A program made the translations under genes and the position numbers. This document shows positions 13,680 through 64,000 of a DNA stretch of 64,000 nucleotides, piece by piece; the first letter of the stretch is position 1, and each line of letters starts with the position of its first letter. Origin of the DNA: an uncultured Gemmatimonadales bacterium (lineage in GTDB: Bacteria; Gemmatimonadota; Gemmatimonadetes; Gemmatimonadales; GWC2-71-9); the NCBI GenBank assembly GCA_963844035.1, contig CAWJMT010000027.1, positions 49,173-113,172 of the forward strand, read 5' to 3'. The notes below the pieces were generated by a model, which was not told the DNA's origin, searched no databases, and saw only the letters and a list, made by a program, of their open reading frames with translations.

Positions 13680-13752
13680 GGGGGCGTAGCTCAGTTGGGA
13701 GAGCGCGTGAATGGCATTCACGAGGTCAGGGGTTCGATCCCCCTCGCCTCCA
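13680..13752 (+). tRNA. tRNA-Ala(GGC)
   Basis: Cloverleaf, G3:U70, anticodon loop ATGGCAT. Confidence 0.95.
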
Positions 13753-14918: not shown

Positions 14919-15280
14919 TCATAGGTCTTCAGCACAGTGATACTTCACACACGTCGATTGTGAGTAGACGATCGCTCCGATTACCGCGGACATGCCGACC
15001 CCCATCGCGATCGTCTTACTCTTACTCACGTCTCGGATGGCTACCTCTGACATGTCCGAGAAAGCCATGGCGTAGCGTTTTCCCGGTAGCGGCCCACTAG
15101 GCTGTCGTCTCTGGTGATTGGCTCCTTGATCACGATGTAATACCCACTGGGCCGAGTGATGCGAACGACGTCGGGTTCATTAAACGAGATCACGTCCTTG
15201 GGGCTGAATGTCGAGACGCGCCAGCTCGTGCAGGCTGAGAGAGAGACGAGGAACAGCAGACAAACAAGGCGTAGACGCAT
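14919..15280 (-). CDS. Small lipoprotein, paralog 1 (frameshift near 15080)
   Basis: LSAC lipobox, VVRITR, C-terminal TM and a Cys pair. Confidence 0.6.
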
Positions 15281-15334
15281 GATTCAACTCCTGTCGGTCG
15301 GGGCCGTGGGGCCGTTGCTCGGGCGAGACCTCTT

Positions 15335-15734
15335 CTAGTTGGGTCCCCCGACGTGGTGCGCTGACAGATCGTCTATAGGACAGTTCTGCTTGACATCGCA
15401 GGGCAATAGATCATAGGTGACCGCTGAGAGCGACGCGATTGCGACCGCTAGCGCGATCGTCCTGCTCTCACTGACCTTCTGGGTCGCAACCTGCGTGACG
15501 TCCGCGAACGCGAGGTTGGAGTACACTCCGTCTGTGGAAGCCCGCCAAGCTGTCACTCCCGACGACTCGCGGCTGCTTAACAACCATGAGCGAGCCGTCG
15601 GCCCGAGTCAGACGCATTGATTTCGGGTGTTCTGCGGCGATGAGTTCTTTCAGGGTGATTCCTTCCCTCACATACCAGTCCGTGCACGCGGGGAGAGAGA
15701 CGAGCAGCAGCAGACAAACAAGGCGTAGAAGCAT
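15335..15734 (-). CDS. Small lipoprotein, paralog 2 (frameshifted)
   Basis: LPAC lipobox, MRLTRADGS, GVYSNLAFADV, TM, CDVKQNC. Confidence 0.65.
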
Positions 15735-15769
15735 GGTTCACCTCCTGACGTTGAGCATTCTTCTCGAGC

Positions 15770-16174
15770 CTAGTCCCTAGTTGGGTCCCCGACGTGCTGC
15801 GCTGACAGAGCGTCAGGACCGCAGTTCTGCCAAAAATCACATGGCAATACCGCATAAGCGGCCGCCGCACTAGCAGCCGCAATCGCAGCCGTTAGCGCGA
15901 TCGTCTTGCTCGAGCTGCTAATTCGGATTTCAACATGCACGACGTCCGCGACCGCGAGGTTGGAGTACACTCCGTTGTGGAAACCCGCCACGCTGTCACT
16001 CCCGACTAATAGCGGCTGGTTGACAACCACACGCGAGCCGTCAGCCCGGGTGAGGCGCACTACGTTCGGGTGCTCCGTAACAATGAGTTCTTTCAGACTG
16101 ATCCCCCTCAAATGCCAGGTCGTGCAAGCGGGGAGAGAGACGAGGAGCAGCAGACAAACAATGGGTAGACGCAT
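15770..16174 (-). CDS. Small lipoprotein, paralog 3
   Basis: CAGGAGG RBS, LPAC lipobox, VRLTRADGS, CDFWQNC. Confidence 0.7.
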   Translation of the reverse strand: MRLPIVCLLLLVSLPACTTWHLRGISLKELIVTEHPNVVRLTRADGSRVVVNQPLLVGSDSVAGFHNGVYSNLAVADVVHVEIRISSSSKTIALTAAIAAASAAAAYAVLPCDFWQNCGPDALSAQHVGDPTRD

Positions 16175-16475
16175 GGATTACCTCCTGTTGGTCTCAGCCT
16201 AGCGCGGGGTCCCGGGGCGGTAAAGGCCGTCGCCCGGTTGCCCAACCAACCGTATGCTCGCACACCGGTTAGGCCGGTGAGTGTTTCCGGTCTTACGAAC
16301 CTGCCGGCATACGCACATCTTCTAGGTGACCCGAAGGTTTCGGTGTGCAAATGCGCTCGATTCGCTTCGACAACGCCCTCCGCAGTTCCCCGCGTCCTGA
16401 CCCGCAGGGCCCATCGCGTTGCCACGCGCAGTTGCAAACCAGTTGCGTCCCCACCCATGAGAACGGAGGAAACCA

Positions 16476-55365: not shown

Positions 55366-55426
55366 GTGTCAGGTGTCAGGTGTCAGTCAGGTGTCAGGTG
55401 TCAGGTGTCAGGTGTCAGGTGTCAGG
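55364..55426 (+). repeat. (GGTGTCA)n heptamer array, left arm
   Basis: About 8 units, inverted relative to 55899-55934. Confidence 0.9.
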
Positions 55427-55822
55427 CGCGTTCTTGAGAGCCCGGGTGAGTCCGGAAAGCATTTTGCCAATCTCACTCGCTTGCAGTAAGAATTTGCTCC
55501 TCCTCTTCCTTCTTGCACGTAGCCCCTCCGCCCGGCGATCAGAACTTGAGTTTCCAACTCCATCAAGGAGCCGTTTGCGATCGACAGGTGGCGAAGGTAG
55601 TCGCCGAGATGGTCTCCTCCCGTGTCCCTCGGCAATGTTCGACGGAACAGACACAGCTGCGCGCCTCAGTTGCTGAGCGAGCCCGTACTTCTCCTCCTTA
55701 GGGAAAGAATCGGTCAGACGGTATGCCTCAACCACGAGATCCATCGCCCGTCCCCAAACAAGGAGGTCACGGAATCCATTGATGAGCCGCCGCGGCGGTT
55801 CATTCGGCTTGTCCAGGATCAT
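55415..55822 (-). CDS. Four-helix-bundle protein (23S-rRNA-IVP / Avd-like family; frameshifted)
   Basis: FRDLLVW..AMDL, FPKEEKYGL..QLRRAAVSVPSNIAEG, ANGSLMELETQ, KMLSGL. Confidence 0.92.
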   Translation of the reverse strand: MILDKPNEPPRRLINGFRDLLVWGRAMDLVVEAYRLTDSFPKEEKYGLAQQLRRAAVSVPSNIAEGHGRRPSRRLPSPPVDRKRLLDGVGNSSSDRRAEGLRARRKRRSKFLLQASEIGKMLSGLTRALKNAPDT

Positions 55823-55898
55823 CGTGTGTGTGACGGAGTCTACAGAACTTGAGTCTGCGAAGGCACACCATTTTGCGGCGAGGACTACCAGATTAGCG

Positions 55899-55934
55899 CA
55901 CACCTGACACCTGACACCCGACACCTGACACCTG
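55899..55934 (-). repeat. (CACCTGA)n heptamer array, right arm
   Basis: About 5 units. Confidence 0.9.
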
Positions 55935-56896: not shown

Positions 56897-56983
56897 GAGA
56901 CTCTCCCGCGAAAAAAGGCCGTCTCACCCCGGAGGAGCGGGACGGCATCATATGGTACACAAACAGCTTAGGCGCGGCAAGCG

Positions 56984-57065
56984 GGCGACGGTCGAGGACG
57001 GTCGAAGGACGGTCAAGGACGGTCCTCACCCCCTGACCCCCTCTCCGCATTCGCGGAGAGGGGAG
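56984..57065. repeat. Decamer tandem (GGACGGTCGA)n plus REP-like hairpin CCTCACCCCCTGACCCCCTCTCC..GGAGAGGGG
   Basis: The hairpin recurs at 58757-58796; the decamer complement occurs at 57445-57475. Confidence 0.7.
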
Positions 57066-57226
57066 ACGCAAGGCGACCGCATTTCGCAAAGGATTGCACA
57101 CGAGCAGCGTTGCTTCGGTACGGAGGCCGCGACCGACACGTCTACATTCGCCGCGCGGCACGGTGGCGCGTGCATGGTCCGTCGTCTCGGCCTTCGGGCT
57201 TACCAGTGGTTCGCAACCGGTATGGT

Positions 57227-57310
57227 GCTGGCGTGGCGAAACTGGTAAACGCGGCAACCTCACACGTTGCTGGGCGCGAGCCCTTGTGGGTTCGAATCCC
57301 ACCGCCAGCA
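57227..57310 (+). tRNA. Non-canonical tRNA: Leu-type class II body with CAC (Val) anticodon
   Basis: GCTGGCG/CGCCAGC-A73; D-arm GGCGAAACTGGTAAACGC; stem GCAAC-CTCACAC-GTTGC; V-arm GGGC-GCGA-GCCC; T-arm GTGGG-TTCGAAT-CCCAC. Confidence 0.85.
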
Positions 57311-57326
57311 CCGCCGTATTTTGCCA

Positions 57327-57355
57327 TTGCGTCACCACGACGTTGCCGATATTTT
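57327..57355 (+). promoter_or_regulatory. Putative sigma-70 promoter of anti-tRNA sRNA 1
   Basis: TTGCGT-N17-TATTTT; equivalent hexamers in all three copies. Confidence 0.6.
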
Positions 57356-57361
57356 GCGACC

Positions 57362-57442
57362 ACGTGTGAGGTTGCCGCGTAGCCAGTTGCGCTACGCCGA
57401 AGAAAGCCGGGAGCGTGATGCTTACCGGCTTTCGTCTTTTCT
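57362..57442 (+). ncRNA. Putative anti-tRNA small RNA 1
   Basis: First 19 nt are the exact reverse complement of 57249-57267, then near-complement of the D-arm; ends in the GAAAGCCGG/CCGGCTTTC hairpin. Confidence 0.65.
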
Positions 57443-57491
57443 GCCCGCCCTCGTCCGCCTTCCACCGCCGCCGTTCCGTGATACGGACACC

Positions 57492-57510
57492 GTATGCATA
57501 TTCTGCATAC
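57492..57510. promoter_or_regulatory. Palindromic operator upstream of the antitoxin
   Basis: GTATGCA-TATTC-TGCATAC perfect inverted repeat. Confidence 0.55.
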
Positions 57511-57531
57511 TCCACATTCGGGAGACGTTGT

Positions 57532-57771
57532 ATGGGACACAAGGTGCGCAAGACGCTGAACATTGACGCAGACAAACTGAAGCGCGCGCAGGACTACCTG
57601 GGGCTCGACACTGAGACCGAGGTGATTGACCTGCTACTCAACCGGCTGCTGGACGATTGCGAATTCGAGCGCGAACTGGCGGAACTGAACCGCGAATTCG
57701 GGACAGTCCTCAAGGGTTTCCGGTCCCCGCTCGTTGCGCGCCTAAAGCCGCGGCTCGGCATCTCCCGCTAA
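57532..57771 (+). CDS. VapB-like (RHH) antitoxin, orphan
   Basis: RKTLNIDADKLKRAQDYLGLDTETEVID pattern; GGAGA RBS. Confidence 0.65.
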   Translation: MGHKVRKTLNIDADKLKRAQDYLGLDTETEVIDLLLNRLLDDCEFERELAELNREFGTVLKGFRSPLVARLKPRLGISR

Positions 57772-57895
57772 AGCGGGTCTGCGCCGCCCGTTCACGGGCA
57801 GGTGCCGAGCCGCGAGTTCACTCGCGCACTCCAACACACGCCGAGCCGCCGTCCGGCCATATTGCCACCGTGCCCGCTCCCAGCTCCCCTCCCCC

Positions 57896-58747
57896 GTGAC
57901 CCTCCCCCAACTCCTCACGTTGCTGCGCAAATCGGTGGTGGCGTGGTATGACGACGACTGTTCCAGCATGGGCGCGGCGCTCGCCTTCTACACGCTCTTC
58001 TCCATCGCTCCGCTGCTCGTGATTGTCGTCGGCGTCGGGAGCCTGATTTTCGGCCGCGATGCCGCCCACGCGCAGATCCTCGGCCAGGTGCGCGCACTCA
58101 TGGGCGACGCCGGCGCCCAGGCCGTCGCGGACCTCTTCAATAGCGCGAACAGCCCCGCGACCAGCGCCCTCACCGCACTGGTGGGTACCATCTTCCTGCT
58201 GTTCGGCGCGACGGCCGTGTTCACTGAGGTGTACGGCAATTTCGACCGCATCTGGCGCAACCCCTCCCCTCCCAAAGCCAGCGGCATCTGGGAACTCGTC
58301 CGCACCCGCATCCTGTCGTTCGGGATGCTCCTCAGCATCGGATTCCTGCTGCTCATCTCGCTTGTCATGTCGGCCGGCATCGCGGCGGCCGGCGACTGGT
58401 GGTGGATCGGCTTTCTGCGCTGGCCGCTCGTGGGCAAGGCCGTCCGCGTGATCGTGAGCCTCGCCACCTACACGTTGGCCTTCGCGATGATCTACAAGGT
58501 TCTGCCCCGCGCAAGCATCCACTGGCACGACGTCTGGACCGGCGCGGCGGTGACCGCCGCGTTGTTCGAGATCGGCAAGCTGTTCATCGGGTGGTACCTC
58601 GCAAGCAGCATCACGTCGGTGCTCGGCGCAGCCGGCTCGCTTGTGGTGCTGCTCGTCTGGCTCTACTACTCGGCGCAGGTGTTCCTGCTCGGTGCGGAGT
58701 TCACCAAGGTGTACGCCTATCGGCGCGGGTCGCGTTCGGGAAAGTAG
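57896..58747 (+). CDS. YihY/BrkB family membrane protein
   Basis: MGAALAFYTLFSIAPLL, IYKVLP, GAAGSLVVLLVWLYYSAQVFLLGAEF. Confidence 0.93.
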   Translation: MTLPQLLTLLRKSVVAWYDDDCSSMGAALAFYTLFSIAPLLVIVVGVGSLIFGRDAAHAQILGQVRALMGDAGAQAVADLFNSANSPATSALTALVGTIFLLFGATAVFTEVYGNFDRIWRNPSPPKASGIWELVRTRILSFGMLLSIGFLLLISLVMSAGIAAAGDWWWIGFLRWPLVGKAVRVIVSLATYTLAFAMIYKVLPRASIHWHDVWTGAAVTAALFEIGKLFIGWYLASSITSVLGAAGSLVVLLVWLYYSAQVFLLGAEFTKVYAYRRGSRSGK

Positions 58748-58846
58748 CTGACGTGACCTCACCCCCTGACCCCCTCTCCCTATCGGGAGAGGGGGAACGC
58801 GCGGGACGTGTCGCGACATCACCGCCTTCGACCGCCCTCGTCCGCC

Positions 58847-58921
58847 CAGTTCTGTGAATCGGATGATGCTCGCGTAGAAATGGTTACGCCCTGCCATCAG
58901 AACCCGGTACGGTTGAGGCCA
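58847..58921 (+). repeat. Conserved ~75-nt non-coding element B1
   Basis: Differs from 61086-61160 at about 8 positions. Confidence 0.7.
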
Positions 58922-58991
58922 GTCCTCTCTCCCCCGGCTCGTGAGGTGGCTCTTGACTCGGCACGCACCATCGCCAACGATTCCGTCAGCC

Positions 58992-59268
58992 ATGCCGGTC
59001 ACGATTCCCTCCGCAGCCCTGCGCCAGATGAGCGAGGCGGAGCGCACGCGGCTTCTCGATGCCGCGTTCGCGCACTCGCCTGAGGCCCTGGCCAACTATC
59101 TCGCCGTGCTCGACGCCCGCATCCGGGTGTTCGAGCAGCGCTACGAGCTGCCGACGTCGGCGCTTCCTGAAGCCATGGCCTCCGGCCAGCTCCGGGACAC
59201 GGCAGACGTGAGTGAGTGGCTGTTCTGGGCACAGCTGCGGAGTGACCTTGCCCGGGAAGCACGGCTAA
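58992..59268 (+). CDS. TumA-like antitoxin
   Basis: FEQRYELPT...SGQLRDTADVSEW pattern; overlaps the toxin start; its stop needs a small indel correction. Confidence 0.6.
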
Positions 59269-59712
59269 CCGCCTCGGCAACTACCTCGACGTTCACGACT
59301 CCCACATCGCGGACCTCATCGCCGAGGGGTTCGTGGTGGAAGATCAGTCGCGGTTCATTTTCCTGCCGGTCTCGTGGTGCTGGAGGGTGTGATCGTTTGC
59401 CTTGACCGCATCAGACTTGAGGTGCGGAAGGAGATCGAGGTCCTGGAGGGACGCGGGATGGCCGCTCGCGTGGACTCGTCGGTTCCGGTATCACGCCTGG
59501 CTACGCGGCGTCTACAACGTCCTGCGGTACGAATCCGCTCACGAACACCGCCCGCACCCTCACAAGCACGTGTACGACACGTTCGGTCACGGACGCGAGC
59601 CGAGTGTCATTGACTTGAGAAAGAGGATGATGTTCCGACGCTCGGCGAGGTTCTGCGGGAGTTGCAGGCGTGGCACGAGGGGAACGCGGCCAGGCTGAAG
59701 TATCTGAAGTGA
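59248..59712 (+). CDS. DUF6516/TumE-like toxin (frameshifted)
   Basis: Stitched frames give FRYHAW...VLRYESAHEHRPHPHKH...PTLGEVLREL. Confidence 0.6.
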
Positions 59713-59752
59713 GGTCATTGCGCCGCGAAAACCTTGACGATATTCTTCGATC

Positions 59753-59832
59753 ACTTGCGGGGTTGCCGCGTAGCCAGTTGCGCTACGCCGAAGAAAGCCG
59801 GGGAGCGTGATGCTCACCGGCTTTCGTCGTCT
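59753..59832 (+). ncRNA. Putative anti-tRNA small RNA, orphan copy
   Basis: Promoter TTGCGC-N17-TATTCT (59718-59746); same body and hairpin; anti-loop TTGCGGG. Confidence 0.6.
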
Positions 59833-59869
59833 CCGCCCAGTGAACCCCGGGGCCGTCCTCGTCGCGGGT

Positions 59870-59905
59870 TACCCCGGGGCACGGCCCCGGGGTAAACCCA
59901 CCCGG
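59870..59905. repeat. REP-like CCCCGGGGCAC.GCCCCGGGGTAAACCCACCCGG element
   Basis: Recurs at 61000-61035. Confidence 0.6.
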
Positions 59906-60107
59906 ATGAGATCCCAACGATGACCGCCTTCGCCCGCCTTCCACCGCCGTCCTTCGTCGGATCCGTCGCAAGAATTCGGTATGCGTAGCGTTGCTGCGGT
60001 ACGCAGGCCGCGACCAACGCTTCTACATTCGCGCCGCGGCACGGTGGCGTTTGCATGGTCCGTCGTCCTGGCCTTCGGGCTTACCAGTGGTTCGCAACCG
60101 GAATGGT

Positions 60108-60191
60108 GCTGGCGTGGCGAAACTGGTAAACGCAGTAACCTTGCAAGTTGCCGGGCGTGAGCCCTTGTGGGTTCGAATCCCACCGCCAGCA
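60108..60191 (+). tRNA. Non-canonical tRNA: Leu-type class II body with TGC (Ala) anticodon
   Basis: Near-identical to 57227-57310; stem GTAAC-CTTGCAA-GTTGC; U3:A70, so no G3:U70. Confidence 0.85.
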
Positions 60192-60246
60192 CCGCCGCGT
60201 TCTTTTGCCATTGCGCCGCCAAGACCTGACTCGATATTGTTCGACC

Positions 60247-60326
60247 ACTTGCAAGGTTGCCGCGTAGCCAGTTCGCTACGTCAAGAAAGCCGGAGAGCGT
60301 CATGCTCACCGGCTTTCGTCGTTTCT
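60247..60326 (+). ncRNA. Putative anti-tRNA small RNA 2
   Basis: Promoter TTGCGC-N18-TATTGT (60211-60240); starts ACTTGCAAGGTT, complementary to the TGC anticodon arm. Confidence 0.65.
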
Positions 60327-60452
60327 GCCCCGTCGTTTCTGTCCCGCTAACCCCGCACCGCGTTTGCTTCCCGACACCGCCTTTGCCTTCCCGACACCGC
60401 CTTCGGCCTTCAACCGCCCTCGCCCGCCCACCTGTCCCACCGACCCGTATAT

Positions 60453-60977
60453 TTGACCTCGCGCGACAGCATCAACACCCAGCTGCGCGCGGCGTTGGAC
60501 GGTGCCACGGCGCAGTGGGGGATCAAGATTGTGCGGGTGGAGCTGAAGAACATCACGCCACCGGAGGAGATTCGCCTCACGATGGAGAAGCAGATGACCG
60601 CCGAGCGGAGCCGGCGGGCCGTGGTCACGACCGCGGAGGGCGAGAAATCGTCCGCGATTCTGCGCGCCGAGGGGCTGAAGCAGGCGGCGATCGTCACGGC
60701 CGAAGGAGAGAAGCAGTCCGCGATTCTCAGTGCCGAAGGTCAGGCCGAAGCACGGCTGCGTGTGGCGGGGGCCGAGGCGCAGGCGCTGCGGGTGGTGGCT
60801 GAAGCGCTCGGGAAGGACGGCAAGCCGGCGCAATACCTCATCGCCAAGAGCTATCTCGAGTCACTGACCGGCATCGCGAGCGATGCCCAGAAGGTCGTCT
60901 TCATGCCGTTCGAAGCATCCTCGGCGATGGCGTCGATCGGGGCGATCAAGGAGTTGTGGGGGGCGACGGGGGGGTGA
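60453..60977 (+). pseudogene. N-terminally truncated SPFH/stomatin (QmcA-like) gene
   Basis: Begins mid-domain at LTSRDSIN; WGIKIVRVELKNI, MEKQMTAER, AEGEK repeats. Confidence 0.8.
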
Positions 60978-61085
60978 GGGGGTGGGCGACGCGTGTTTAG
61001 CCCCGGGGCACCGCCCCGGGGTAAACCCACCCGGTCAAGATTCACTGTGTTGCCCGCCCTCGCCTGCCGCTTCACCCTCCCGCCG

Positions 61086-61160
61086 CAGTTCGGTGAATCG
61101 GATGATTCTTGCGTAGAAAGGGTTACGCCCTGCTAATAGAATCCGGTACGGTTGAGGCCA
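61086..61160 (+). repeat. Conserved ~75-nt non-coding element B2
   Basis: Copy of 58847-58921; CAGTTCGG can pair with CCGAACTG just downstream. Confidence 0.7.
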
Positions 61161-61283
61161 ACCGAACTGCCTCCTCACTCCCGCGCGGACTGTCACACCC
61201 TGTTCGCACCTCGGTGCAACTTCAGCGTGGAGGCAGTGTGGCAATCTTGAAGTCGTGCCGCGCCCGACAGAGCGAAGGGACAC

Positions 61284-62348
61284 GTGGCACGCCCTGATCG
61301 CCTCAACATCATCGGAGAGCTCGAGCGCCTTCGTGGCTCGCGCGTCATCACCTTGCTTACGGGTGACCGGGCTCCGGACTACGGCACGATCATCGCGGGC
61401 GACGCGCCGCCACTGCTCTACCGGCATCTCGAGCGGCTGGGCAAGGTCGATCAGATCGACCTTCTCCTCTATAGCCGAGGCGGGCACACTCTAAGCGGCT
61501 TTCGCATCCCGGCACTGGTTCGCGAGTACTGCACACGGTTTTGCGTGTTGATCCCGTACCGAGCGCACAGTGCCGCTACGCTGGTGGCCCTGGGCGCCGA
61601 CGAGATCGTCATGACGCCGCTAGCGGAGTTGAGCCCGGTCGATCCTTCTACGAATGGTCCGTTTAATCCTCCCGCGCCCGTGCAGGTGGCAGCGGGACAA
61701 ATGCCCCCGACGTTCCCCGTAAGTGTGGAGGACGTCGTGGGCTACCTGAACCTCGCGAGAGAGGAAGCGGGCCTTCAGGATTCTCAGGCGATGCGGGAGG
61801 TGTTTACTCGGCTGGCGACAGACGTCCGCCCGCTGGCGCTTGGGCAGGTTTTTCGCGCACGATCGCAGATTCGCATGTTGATCCGCAAGTTGCTCCTGCT
61901 ACACGAGAATCCACCCGGCCGCTCGCGAATCGCGGGTCTCGTGAAGGCCGCACCGGCGCGTCGGCGAATGAGAAGCATCGTTACGACCCTCTCAGAGAGA
62001 CTCCTCTCTCACGACTACTTGATCACGCGCGCGGAGGCGAAGACGCTCGGTCTCAAGGTAAAGTTTGCCTCGGCGGACGAAGAAGGGCGCATGCTTGCCC
62101 TGTACCGCGACTACGAAGCGGCTATGCAACTCTCAGAACCCTTCAACGTGGAGACCGTTCTCCCGGCCTCGGGGACGCTGCAGATCACCTTCGAGCGGGC
62201 ATACATCGAGAGCAGCTTCGGTGCCCACATCTACCGCACAGTGAAGGAGTTCAGGCGGGCAGCAGCGGCGGGGCAGCAAGCGCAGCAGTTGCAAACTGCG
62301 GAACGCATCGTGCATGACGGTTGGGTGTTGACCGACGCTAAACCGTAA
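61284..62348 (+). CDS. SDH-family ClpP-fold serine protease
   Basis: IDLLLYSRGG, IPYRAHSAATLVALGADEIVM, LSPVDP, SHDYLITRAEA..LGLKV. Confidence 0.85.
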   Translation: MARPDRLNIIGELERLRGSRVITLLTGDRAPDYGTIIAGDAPPLLYRHLERLGKVDQIDLLLYSRGGHTLSGFRIPALVREYCTRFCVLIPYRAHSAATLVALGADEIVMTPLAELSPVDPSTNGPFNPPAPVQVAAGQMPPTFPVSVEDVVGYLNLAREEAGLQDSQAMREVFTRLATDVRPLALGQVFRARSQIRMLIRKLLLLHENPPGRSRIAGLVKAAPARRRMRSIVTTLSERLLSHDYLITRAEAKTLGLKVKFASADEEGRMLALYRDYEAAMQLSEPFNVETVLPASGTLQITFERAYIESSFGAHIYRTVKEFRRAAAAGQQAQQLQTAERIVHDGWVLTDAKP

Positions 62349-62701
62349 GAGATATTGCCACTTCAATGGATGACTTCTTGAGGGGCTACTCCTTGAAGGT
62401 ACTGGGCGCGTGGACGGGTGCCCGGGTGGCTTTCCCGGCCCAGTCTGCGGGAGCTGAACCGTGGAGCGGCGCTTTCGATCACGCCGCGCCTACGTGGACG
62501 CCAGCCAGCCGACCCTTCTCGCTCCACAGGAGGAGTTGCCGCTCGAAACGCCTCCCGCTCCCGATGCGGAAGCCACCTAGACTCCTCGGCCGCCGCCCGT
62601 ATCAGACCGCCGCAGTACCCCGTCTCCACCGCCCTCCACCCCAACCGCCCTCGCCCGCCCGACCCTCGCCGCATGTCACACCGCGACCGCATATTCTCCC
62701 C

Positions 62702-63323
62702 GTGCCCAGCACACCAAAGTTCGCTCCCTCCCCACGCCTCACGGCAGCGTTCGAGTATGCCTGCCAGCTCCACGCGAACCAGCTTCGGAAAGGGGCGACG
62801 ATCCCGTACATCGCCCATCTGATGGCCGTCGCCGCGCTGGTGATGGAGCACGGCGGCGGCGAGGACGAGGCCATGGCGGCGTGCTGCACGATGCCATTGA
62901 GGATCAGAACCACGACGGGTCGGTTCCGGGAGAGGTCGGCGCGCGGTTTGGGCCGAAAGTGCTCGCGCTCGTCGAGGCCTGTTCCGACTCAAAGGGGCCG
63001 GACAAGCCACCCTGGCGGGAGCGCAAGGCAGCGTATGTGGCCCATCTACGGACCGCGCCACCGAGCGTACGTCTTCATCTCGGCGGCAGACAAGCTGCAC
63101 AACGCCCGCGCGATTCTTGAAGACTACCGCAGGCTGGGCGACGAGTTGTGGGAGCGGTTCAATACGGGTCGGGAGGACAGTTGCGGTTACTACAGCGACC
63201 TGGTCACTGCATTCAGAAGGCCGTGACCAGCGGCCAGACTCGAGCGTTGGTGGACGAGCTGGATCGGTGGTGACGGCGCTCGAACGCGAAATCGACAGCG
63301 CCGCCGAGGGCCCAGGGAAGTGA
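62702..63323 (+). CDS. HD-domain protein, Mesh1/small alarmone hydrolase-like (frameshifted)
   Basis: HANQLRKG..PYIAHL, LHDAIED, ACSD, WRERK, ADKLHNAR. Confidence 0.88.
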
Positions 63324-63375
63324 CGCTGACGTTGCAAGGTGCGACTTGGGTCTTAGGCATGGGGCGTTTGACCAC

Positions 63376-64000
63376 ATGACCAAGAGAAGGACCCCGACGG
63401 ATGGCAGCAATCTAGTTTACGGAGAGGTGGAAGGCTCGCTGGTTTTCATCCCGCACGCGAAAGCGCAGGAGCTTGCTAAGATCTGGGCCGCATTGGGTTC
63501 CGCCTCGACGTGGGGCGAGTTCCGATCCTTGATGCCTCCGACCAGATACGAGGCATTGCTTGCAGACATGGTCTACGCCGTCGACTTCGATTCGTTCTTT
63601 GCACAGGAGTTGCTGGACAATCCGAGCCTGACTCGTGACCAAGCGTTCTTGGCGTACCGCGAGGTTGATGTGGGGGAGCGACTGCCATTTGATGACGATG
63701 CGTTTGAGGGATACGCACTCCCCCAGGTGGCGGACGGCGACTACCCCGAGTGGTCAGCTCAAGAAATGCTCAACTGGGTACCGGCAGTCATCGTTAATCA
63801 ACCCTTCAGCAAGATTGAGAGATCTGTCCACAATGGTCAGTTTCTGATACTGGATCCCAAGAAGGAGCGAGAGATTGTTGCTGCGTTCGCTGCCGCAGGT
63901 TTCCGCTCCACCAAAGATCAACAGCTGGTATCACAAGCCACCGGTCATTGGGCGCCTGTCGACTCCGAGGAGTCCATACCAGAACTGATCCTTGCCCTCA
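63376..64000 (+). CDS. Hypothetical protein (runs off the window)
   Basis: Uninterrupted frame from ATG 63376 to the window end (MTKRRTPTDGSNLVYGEVEG...DGDYPEW); absent from the ORF track because it has no stop. Confidence 0.65.
   Translation, partial: MTKRRTPTDGSNLVYGEVEGSLVFIPHAKAQELAKIWAALGSASTWGEFRSLMPPTRYEALLADMVYAVDFDSFFAQELLDNPSLTRDQAFLAYREVDVGERLPFDDDAFEGYALPQVADGDYPEWSAQEMLNWVPAVIVNQPFSKIERSVHNGQFLILDPKKEREIVAAFAAAGFRSTKDQQLVSQATGHWAPVDSEESIPELILAL

What the first reader, a model, noticed from the sequence alone, without database searches (positions are those of the whole stretch)
60108..60191. Same tRNA-Leu body carrying an Ala (TGC) anticodon without G3:U70
Seen: TGC at 60142-60144, two substitutions away from any Leu anticodon. 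Pair 3:70 is U:A, whereas the genuine tRNA-Ala at 13680 has G3:U70. Established: G3:U70 is the AlaRS determinant, so this tRNA should not be alanylated. Inference: an Ala-to-Leu missense tRNA. One scaffold with two anticodons suggests diversification of target codons.
Basis: partly seen in the sequence, partly recalled or inferred. Interest (0 to 1): 0.82.

Follow-up and report, generated by a model that had tools for sequence, protein, structure and literature searches.

The report
Mistranslating tRNA with antisense antidote RNA
This gene has a leucine-tRNA body with an alanine anticodon and lies beside a short antisense element that matches its anticodon, a pairing repeated in about 200 relatives in one bacterial phylum; it is likely an all-RNA toxin-antitoxin module whose toxin would corrupt translation.

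Summary
In detail: 60108-60191 is an intact 7/5 long-arm tRNA with TGC at 60142-44, U3:A70 and the LeuRS elements A73, A15:U48, G18G19 and A20a. At 60211-60325 lies a sigma70-like promoter, an antisense copy of the anticodon and D arms (GCA opposite TGC), a hairpin and a terminator-like hairpin. Relatives are mostly Gemmatimonadota, patchy and often multicopy. They read Ala, Val, Asp, Glu or Gly codons. All 105 genome-set members have a matched antisense element (0 of 18 true tRNA-Leu). In the pooled set the antisense triplet tracks the anticodon in 175 of 182 (permuted mean 40), across dozens of anticodon switches. Antisense elements survive alone or beside broken tRNAs (29 of 77 hits), while no genome-set tRNA lacks one: the toxin-antitoxin asymmetry. 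A leader likely masks the nascent tRNA. Best reading: a missense-tRNA toxin (Ala to Leu) silenced by an antisense RNA (0.7). Charging, expression, toxicity and rescue are untested. Code reassignment, pseudogene and sequencing error are rejected. Nine literature searches found no description of this arrangement.

The parts
60108..60191 (+). Leu-type (long variable arm, 7/5) tRNA gene with Ala anticodon TGC (60142-60144); U3:A70, A15:U48, G18G19, A20a, U33, A37, A73; CCA not encoded. Predicted toxin.
   Evidence: only 3 of 63 parsed tRNA genes of this genome encode CCA, so its absence is not a defect
60036..60107 (+). 5' leader: imperfect inverted copy of the tRNA's 5' half and 3' trailer; ends in GGT that can pair with A73-C-C. 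Predicted to mask the nascent tRNA and slow processing.
   Evidence: GGT at -3..-1 in 83 of 105 relatives, 0 of the six commonest triplets listed for true Leu. In this copy the full precursor's lowest-energy fold keeps leader and tRNA mostly apart
59965..60029 (+). Predicted precursor promoter: conserved motif YGCRWnnWWWYGRT (59965-59984) and a -10-like TACATT (60024-60029)
   Evidence: motif in 90 of 103 relatives, 1 of 18 true Leu above the same score; window score 13.1
60211..60240 (+). Predicted sigma70-type promoter of the antisense RNA: -35 TTGCGC (60211), 18-nt spacer, -10 TATTGT (60235)
   Evidence: TTG at the matching offset in 93 of 101 relatives versus 2 of 18 and 9 of 98 in controls; A 77% and T 87% at -10 positions 2 and 6. 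The generic scanner did not call it
60247..60325 (+). Antisense element (predicted antitoxin RNA, about 78 nt): open 5' seed complementary to tRNA positions 40 to 24 (GCA at 60251-53), hairpin 60262-60281, terminator-like hairpin 60285-60317, U-rich tail
   Evidence: fold z -4.3; both helices covary, 13 of 13 pairs; cofold gain -25.6 kcal/mol with the TGC tRNA versus -0.8 with a native Ala-TGC
59716..59843 (+). Second antisense unit upstream with its own TTG..17..TATTCT promoter; carries GCG (for anticodon CGC) but can pair with the TGC tRNA through G.U
   Evidence: model hit 80 bits; seed duplex -28.3 versus -29.4 for the downstream one; cofold -22.3
57143..57451 (+). Paralogous complete unit: -10 (57143), leader (57155), tRNA with Val CAC anticodon (57227-57310), antisense promoter (57327) and antisense element carrying GTG (from 57362)
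57000..64000 (.). Accessory stretch that holds all three units; in six same-genus genomes the gene ending near 56900 is followed directly by an argH-like gene (name recalled from the sequence), with no tRNA
   Evidence: the matching gene lies on another contig of G000

Best explanation
The locus pairs a leucine-type tRNA gene bearing an alanine anticodon with a neighbouring antisense element that matches its anticodon arm, and it likely works as an all-RNA toxin-antitoxin module in which the tRNA would put leucine at alanine codons and the antisense RNA would hold it inactive. SHOWN (sequence and comparison): the architecture; the identity elements; the tracking of anticodon by antisense; the promoter-like boxes and covarying hairpins; the decay asymmetry; the patchy, accessory distribution.
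For: Antisense score >=27 in 103 of 105 genome-set tRNAs versus 0 of 18 true tRNA-Leu. The other two (L058) have matched antisense units upstream with their own promoter and terminator, so position is free. Independent metagenome set: 81 of 85 C36 tRNAs with enough flank. Register fixed without the anticodon: 175 of 182 exact and 179 pairable, against permuted means of 39.5 and 52, maxima 56 and 72. Mismatches favour G.U (7.6%) over A.C (2.9%). The seed's best partner is its own tRNA in 84 of 101. Anticodons scatter over the tree (53 changes, minimum 11). Searching from the antisense side, 47 of 77 hits have an intact tRNA upstream and 29 do not; about 20 of the 29 show tRNA remnants by eye (deletions, T-loop insertions, point damage). 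No conserved protein partner and no aaRS among 138 flanking ORFs. Bacterial Leu identity is A73, A15-U48, G18G19, A20a and not the anticodon (PMC9976931, passages). Missense allo-tRNAs killed E. coli when induced (PMC5389517, results section).
Against: No functional data: charging, expression, toxicity and rescue are untested. RNA evidence is only low-depth contigs of relatives in one metatranscriptome, with none over the antisense part. C33 in place of U33 in 27 of 101 metagenome tRNAs suggests weakened decoding. For the CAC/GAC versions ValRS could compete (A35, C36, A73). No link to plasmids or phages and no integrase or transposase among flanking ORFs, so an addiction role has no shown vehicle. 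Leader tracking of the anticodon is weak (21 of 97 exact versus 13 permuted, maximum 24). Kin are not independent, and strand-biased C-to-T mutation could add to the G.U excess. The asymmetry count compares two search methods with different sensitivity.
Confidence: 0.7

Rival explanations
1. Regulated, tolerated mistranslation. The tRNA is a real missense adaptor, but the antisense RNA is a rheostat that allows a useful low level of Ala/Val-to-Leu errors under stress or infection, rather than an antidote to a lethal toxin.
For: Conserved upstream motif suggests regulated transcription; C33 variants look attenuated; tRNA-ProX is a precedent for encoded mistranslation with unknown benefit (PMC11415595 section 17).
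Against: Free switching among Ala, Val, Asp, Glu and Gly targets, up to 13 antisense hits per genome, frequent tRNA breakage beside intact antisense and absence from most relatives (24 of 401 by pattern; 45 of 151 by model) fit a selfish or defence module better than a tuned trait.
Confidence: 0.15
2. The tRNA does not decode. It acts as a decoy or structural RNA (bait for anticodon nucleases, sink for synthetases or EF-Tu) that the antisense RNA switches off.
For: Some allo-tRNAs near toxin-antitoxin genes were inactive in translation (PMC5389517, passage); PIN, HicB and Phd genes flank a few loci; C33 variants.
Against: The body keeps LeuRS elements that a nuclease decoy would not need. Anticodons are confined to GNN readers with A37 (103 of 105; 0 of 401 genomes with N-B-R anticodons). 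By recalled tRNA-modification rules these decode without a hypermodified base 37, which points to selection for ribosomal use.
Confidence: 0.07
3. The antisense copy is a non-functional inverted repeat kept alike by template switching or gene conversion, and the tRNA is silent or nearly so.
For: The leader is also an inverted copy; near-perfect tracking could be helped by DNA-level copying; no direct proof of transcription.
Against: Fixed -35/-10 geometry, covarying hairpins that depart from the tRNA complement, G.U excess, upstream placement in L058 and persistence after tRNA loss. Conversion may be how the pair co-evolves, but not why it is kept.
Confidence: 0.05
4. Codon reassignment or a genuine extra Ala isoacceptor.
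For: The commonest family anticodon, CGC, is missing from this genome's native Ala set.
Against: GCA positions of this genome align to Ala 55% and Leu 1% (n=97), like GCC (55%, 2%); native Ala-TGC genes with G3:U70 are present; G3:U70 in 1 of 105 family members.
Confidence: 0.02

Closest known systems
Type VIII toxin-antitoxin SdsR-RyeA (PMC8610362, passages)
   Same: RNA toxin masked by an antisense RNA antitoxin; no protein.
   Different: SdsR is an mRNA-targeting sRNA, and the two genes overlap on opposite strands. Here the predicted toxin is a tRNA and the antisense is a separate same-strand gene that must co-evolve with it.
CreTA (PMC12737573, passages)
   Same: RNA toxin that attacks decoding; RNA antitoxin; addiction logic.
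   Different: CreT drains a rare tRNA and CreA represses its promoter through Cascade. Here no Cas partner was seen among flanking ORFs, the tRNA itself is the predicted effector, and pairing is RNA to RNA.
tRNA-ProX / ProRSx of Streptomyces and Kitasatospora (PMC11415595 section 17)
   Same: Natural bacterial tRNA family with one identity and several foreign anticodons, including Ala.
   Different: Pro identity, A34, A33 and a co-encoded synthetase. Here: Leu identity, C/G34, no aaRS neighbour, and an antisense partner.
Allo-tRNAs (PMC5389517, passages and part 2 of 5; PMC7609411, passages)
   Same: Long-arm tRNAs with diverse non-cognate anticodons, toxic in E. coli, often near toxin-antitoxin genes.
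   Different: 8/4 or 9/3 fold, Ser/Ala identity, G73/U73, Acidobacteria and others; 'antisense' does not occur in either main text. Here canonical 7/5 and A73.
Type I systems such as hok/sok (definition from PMC8610362; leader fold-back recalled)
   Same: Antisense RNA antitoxin; a self-masking primary transcript.
   Different: The toxin there is a peptide and the target an mRNA.

Membership tests
Bacterial tRNA-Leu identity | A73 discriminator | tested here: met
   window copy A73; 104 of 105 relatives, the exception being a one-base register slip in L053
Bacterial tRNA-Leu identity | A15:U48, G18G19, A20a, long variable arm | tested here: met
   A15:U48 in 102 of 105, A at 20a in 105 of 105 (partly fixed by the search pattern), 15-nt variable region in 104 of 105
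Bacterial tRNA-Leu identity | Leucylation by LeuRS | not testable with these tools
   needs an aminoacylation assay
tRNA-Leu isoacceptor | Leu anticodon | tested here: not met
   TGC at 60142-44
tRNA-Ala | G3:U70 | tested here: not met
   U3:A70; 1 of 105 relatives has it
Allo-tRNA | 8/4 or 9/3 acceptor branch, G73/U73 | tested here: not met
   7/5 with A73
tRNA-ProX | Pro body, A33/A34, co-encoded ProRSx | tested here: not met
   Leu body, U33, U34; no aaRS among 138 nearest ORFs of relatives or 13 window ORFs
Type VIII toxin-antitoxin | Both components are RNA, no protein partner | tested here: met
   no conserved flanking protein; both elements are non-coding by structure
Type VIII toxin-antitoxin | Antitoxin complementary to the toxin RNA | tested here: met
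Type VIII toxin-antitoxin | Toxin arrests growth and antitoxin rescues | not testable with these tools
   supported only indirectly by the decay asymmetry
Type VIII toxin-antitoxin | Both RNAs are expressed; antitoxin is the less stable | tested here: inconclusive
   only low-depth contigs of relatives' tRNA and leader in one RNA run
Known Rfam RNA family (T-box or other) for leader or antisense | Score at gathering threshold | tested here: not met
   only the tRNA model matches in 56900-60500

The most novel reading that the evidence does not exclude
An RNA-only suicide switch whose toxin is a working tRNA: when phage or stress halts host transcription, the short antisense RNA decays, the stored Leu-charged tRNA floods Ala or Val codons and the cell aborts by corrupting its own genetic code. 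Anticodon switching creates orthogonal toxin-antidote pairs that stack in one genome.
Probability: 0.35. Interest if true: 0.97.

Novelty: categorically new. Interest (0 to 1): 0.9.

Why it matters
If true, this is a toxin-antitoxin system whose toxin is a transfer RNA, controlled by a dedicated antisense RNA against its anticodon arm; my searches found no such antisense regulator described. It offers a testable answer to the open question of why bacteria keep mistranslating tRNAs (tRNA-ProX, allo-tRNAs): they may be held in check and used as conflict modules, and those families can now be checked for antisense partners. About 200 natural pairs show how RNA-RNA specificity co-evolves, with G.U intermediates caught in the act. 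It also gives a natural design for switching a tRNA on and off, and warns that anticodon-based annotation mislabels these genes as Ala, Val, Asp or Glu tRNAs.

Tried and rejected
Sequencing error, pseudo-tRNA and codon reassignment: rejected. Generic promoter/terminator scan found 0 sites; the promoter claim rests on comparison. Rfam: no family for leader or antisense. Viral contigs: 2 unrelated hits, then 0; plasmids and phages: no match. Upstream motif as LexA box: not supported, since lexA and recA upstream regions score at most 5.7 and share a different TTCGG repeat. Read laying gave contigs of relatives only (shares under 0.2), so nothing on starts, ends or levels. An ungapped anchor test misregistered many rows (65 of 105 usable, 62 matched) and was replaced. 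Rows dropped before the count of 105: 8 non-Leu-anticodon tRNAs from phage or non-Gemmatimonadota records with different acceptor or flank features (L031, L032, L035, L048, L052, L069, L089, L111), removed after their low scores were visible; with them the figure is 103 of 113. In the metagenome set 4 of 85 C36 tRNAs (L200, L220, L238, L249; different ends, no GGT) and 5 of 11 non-C36 tRNAs lack an antisense match. Phe anticodons were never covered by any pattern. Three look-ups in earlier scan findings returned nothing.

Full report
OBSERVATION. The gene at 60108-60191 is a well-formed tRNA with a long variable arm, TGC at 60142-44, U3:A70 and A73. A paralogue at 57227 has CAC. The genome holds two more copies with CAC on contig C4, plus normal Leu, Ala and Val tRNAs. 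The native Ala genes have G3:U70. Among non-family genes the closest are the Leu isoacceptors TAA, CAG and TAG. CCA is not encoded, as for 60 of 63 parsed tRNA genes here. The passages seen of PMC9976931 give bacterial Leu identity as A73, A15-U48, G18G19 and A20a, not the anticodon; all four are present.

The two window copies share about 120 nt upstream and 140 nt downstream. The downstream part holds the reverse complement of the tRNA's anticodon and D arms and changes with the anticodon: GTG behind CAC, GCA behind TGC. A third such element lies at 59716-59843. Each folds as an open 5' seed, a hairpin and a terminator-like hairpin.

THE FAMILY. A DNA search found matches in 28 of 61 related genomes, about half of them ordinary tRNA-Leu. 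A Leu-body pattern with pyrimidine at position 36 gave 101 stretches in the species-level genome collection, 91 titled as Gemmatimonadota lineages. After merging with earlier loci and removing duplicates there were 113 non-Leu-anticodon tRNAs and 18 true Leu controls. I set aside 8 from phage or other-phylum records, after seeing their low scores, leaving 105. Anticodons: Ala 50, Val 35, Asp 9, Glu 6, Gly 3, Thr 2; C36 in 103. Stems are intact (acceptor 7/7 in 101, T stem 5/5 in 101). A73 is in 104, A15:U48 in 102, G3:U70 in 1. In one sample of 401 phylum genomes, 24 match with N-N-Y anticodons, all in two families of one order, and 0 match with N-B-R anticodons (that pattern required U33).

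THE ANTISENSE ELEMENT. Duplex score >=27 in 103 of 105 versus 0 of 18 controls; exact anticodon complement in the alignment for 101. The two without a downstream element (L058) each have a matched unit upstream with the same promoter and terminator layout, which argues for action in trans. Among 96 new metagenome tRNAs with enough flank, 81 of 85 C36 and 6 of 11 others have it, and every aligned mismatch at the anticodon is a G.U pair. With the register set without the anticodon, 175 of 182 are exact and 179 pairable; permutation gives 39.5 and 52. Transition mismatches that leave G.U are 7.6% and those that leave A.C 2.9% (relatives are not independent, and mutation bias could contribute). 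TTG occurs at the -35 offset in 93 of 101 versus 2 of 18 and 9 of 98, with a TAnnnT-like box after about 17 nt, which puts the start at the base opposite tRNA position 40-41. Both hairpins covary: 13 of 13 pairs, 90% paired versus 41-49% when slid (structure derived from the same alignment). A seed's best partner is its own tRNA in 84 of 101 and in the top 5% in 100. Cofolding gain for the window pair is -25.6 kcal/mol, versus -0.8, -1.9 and -7.4 with native Ala-TGC, Ala-GGC and Leu-CAG; cross-talk to the CAC paralogue is substantial at -22.5. On a tree of 102 rows without the anticodon loop, anticodons change 53 times (minimum 11, shuffled 60.8; only 134 columns, many forks open), so the match was regained many times.

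ASYMMETRY. A covariance model of the antisense unit hit 45 of 151 family genomes, up to 13 times each, and 7 times in this genome against 4 tRNAs. I fetched 70 loci around the better hits, holding 77 full-length matches. Of these, 47 have an intact tRNA upstream, all with non-Leu anticodons where ARAGORN called them, 29 have none and 1 had too little flank. About 20 of the 29 show tRNA remnants by eye. No genome-set tRNA lacks an antisense unit. Toxin decay under an intact antidote, and not the reverse, is what toxin-antitoxin logic predicts (established reasoning; the two searches differ in sensitivity).

LEADER AND UPSTREAM REGION. The leader is an imperfect inverted copy of the tRNA 5' half and trailer. 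In predicted nascent transcripts the anticodon loop pairs with the leader with mean probability 0.63, versus 0.30 for shuffled leaders and 0.22 for true Leu (103 members). G.U excess is again seen (25.6% versus 11.7%), but anticodon tracking is weak. GGT at -3..-1 (83 of 105) can extend the acceptor stem over A73-C-C, which by recalled RNase P rules should slow processing. A motif about 120 nt upstream is in 90 of 103; it is not the lexA/recA repeat.

CONTEXT. No conserved neighbour among 138 nearest ORFs; 3 PIN, 1 HicB, 1 Phd, 1 HTH_37, 2 Uma2 and 12 kinases; no synthetase, integrase or transposase (one ORF per side, cut at 330 aa). In six congeners the site is empty. No plasmid or phage match. 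The code is standard: GCA aligns to Ala 55% and Leu 1%.

MECHANISM. Best reading (0.7): a Leu-charged tRNA that reads Ala codons is the toxin; the leader is a cis latch; the small RNA is the antidote. The restriction to GNN readers with A37 fits selection for decoding without hypermodification and for abundant codons (GCG is the top codon in a rough count); both points are inference. A path such as CAA or CAG to CAC to CGC to TGC needs single steps. The window may show the last step: the upstream unit still carries GCG and pairs with U34 by G.U, while the downstream unit has GCA. Whether the module serves addiction or phage defence is open.

LITERATURE. Nine searches of the open-access library found no tRNA toxin with an antisense antitoxin; none held Gemmatimonad, tRNA, anticodon and mistranslation together. 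Seen: PMC5389517 (passages, part 2 of 5), PMC11415595 (passages, sections 17-18), PMC9976931, PMC12737573, PMC8610362, PMC7609411 and two 2026 preprints (passages only; the preprints were not relevant). Subscription papers and supplements, such as the irregular-tRNA figures of PMC5389517, were not seen and could bear on novelty.

VERDICT. Real, conserved and larger than reported. It works like a type VIII toxin-antitoxin pair in outline; membership cannot be claimed until toxicity and rescue are shown, and the effector and the antisense target are unlike the known members. Interest 0.9.

Noticed in passing
window 58868-58887 and 61107-61126: The motif found upstream of the tRNA precursors also sits in a 75-nt repeat (58847, 61086) ahead of a small gene pair and of a ClpP-like SDH protease gene (scores 18.6, 14.0); an unassigned regulator site or alternative promoter element.
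   Followed up: partly
G000:C12 upstream of lexA (L134) and G000:C2 upstream of recA (L135): Both carry a TTCGG-W(6)-TTCGG direct repeat, a candidate SOS box for this lineage.
   Followed up: no
window 58941-59695: Two small ORFs, frameshifted, no Pfam hit; they resemble a protein toxin-antitoxin pair (recalled resemblance only). A lone weak VapB-like ORF lies at 57532-57768 (E 0.003, below cut-off).
   Followed up: partly
G000:C4:389215-390622 and 409327-410356: Two more full units (both CAC) and two antisense units without an intact tRNA, one behind a tRNA 3' fragment; the genome has 4 tRNAs and 7 antisense hits.
   Followed up: yes
L285, L310, L320, L284: Family tRNAs broken by an insertion of roughly 40-50 nt, hairpin-like in three of them, in the T loop, with the antisense intact.
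   Followed up: no
L109 (same as L293): Member with Ala AGC anticodon and G3:U70, so possibly alanylated and harmless, yet it keeps its antisense.
   Followed up: no
L200, L215, L238, L249, L255: A separate group of long-arm tRNAs with unpaired acceptor ends, Gly/Ser/Ala/Asp anticodons and no antisense match.
   Followed up: no
L069, L111; L031, L032, L194; L179, L233: Other Leu-like bodies without antisense: Gly-CCC in Chloroflexota records, Asn-GTT with G73 in phage-like contigs, Pro-TGG in metagenome contigs.
   Followed up: no
L225: Arg-GCG anticodon with a matched antisense: an exception to the C36 rule.
   Followed up: no
whole window: Many ORFs are frameshifted, as in an unpolished long-read assembly; several short repeat families (heptamer runs, palindromes) lie between genes, and a 23S-IVP/bAvd-like ORF is at 55418-55924.
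   Followed up: no
window 14988-16187: Three tandem units of about 445 nt after the tRNA cluster (repeat families D3, D4, D6, D14).
   Followed up: no
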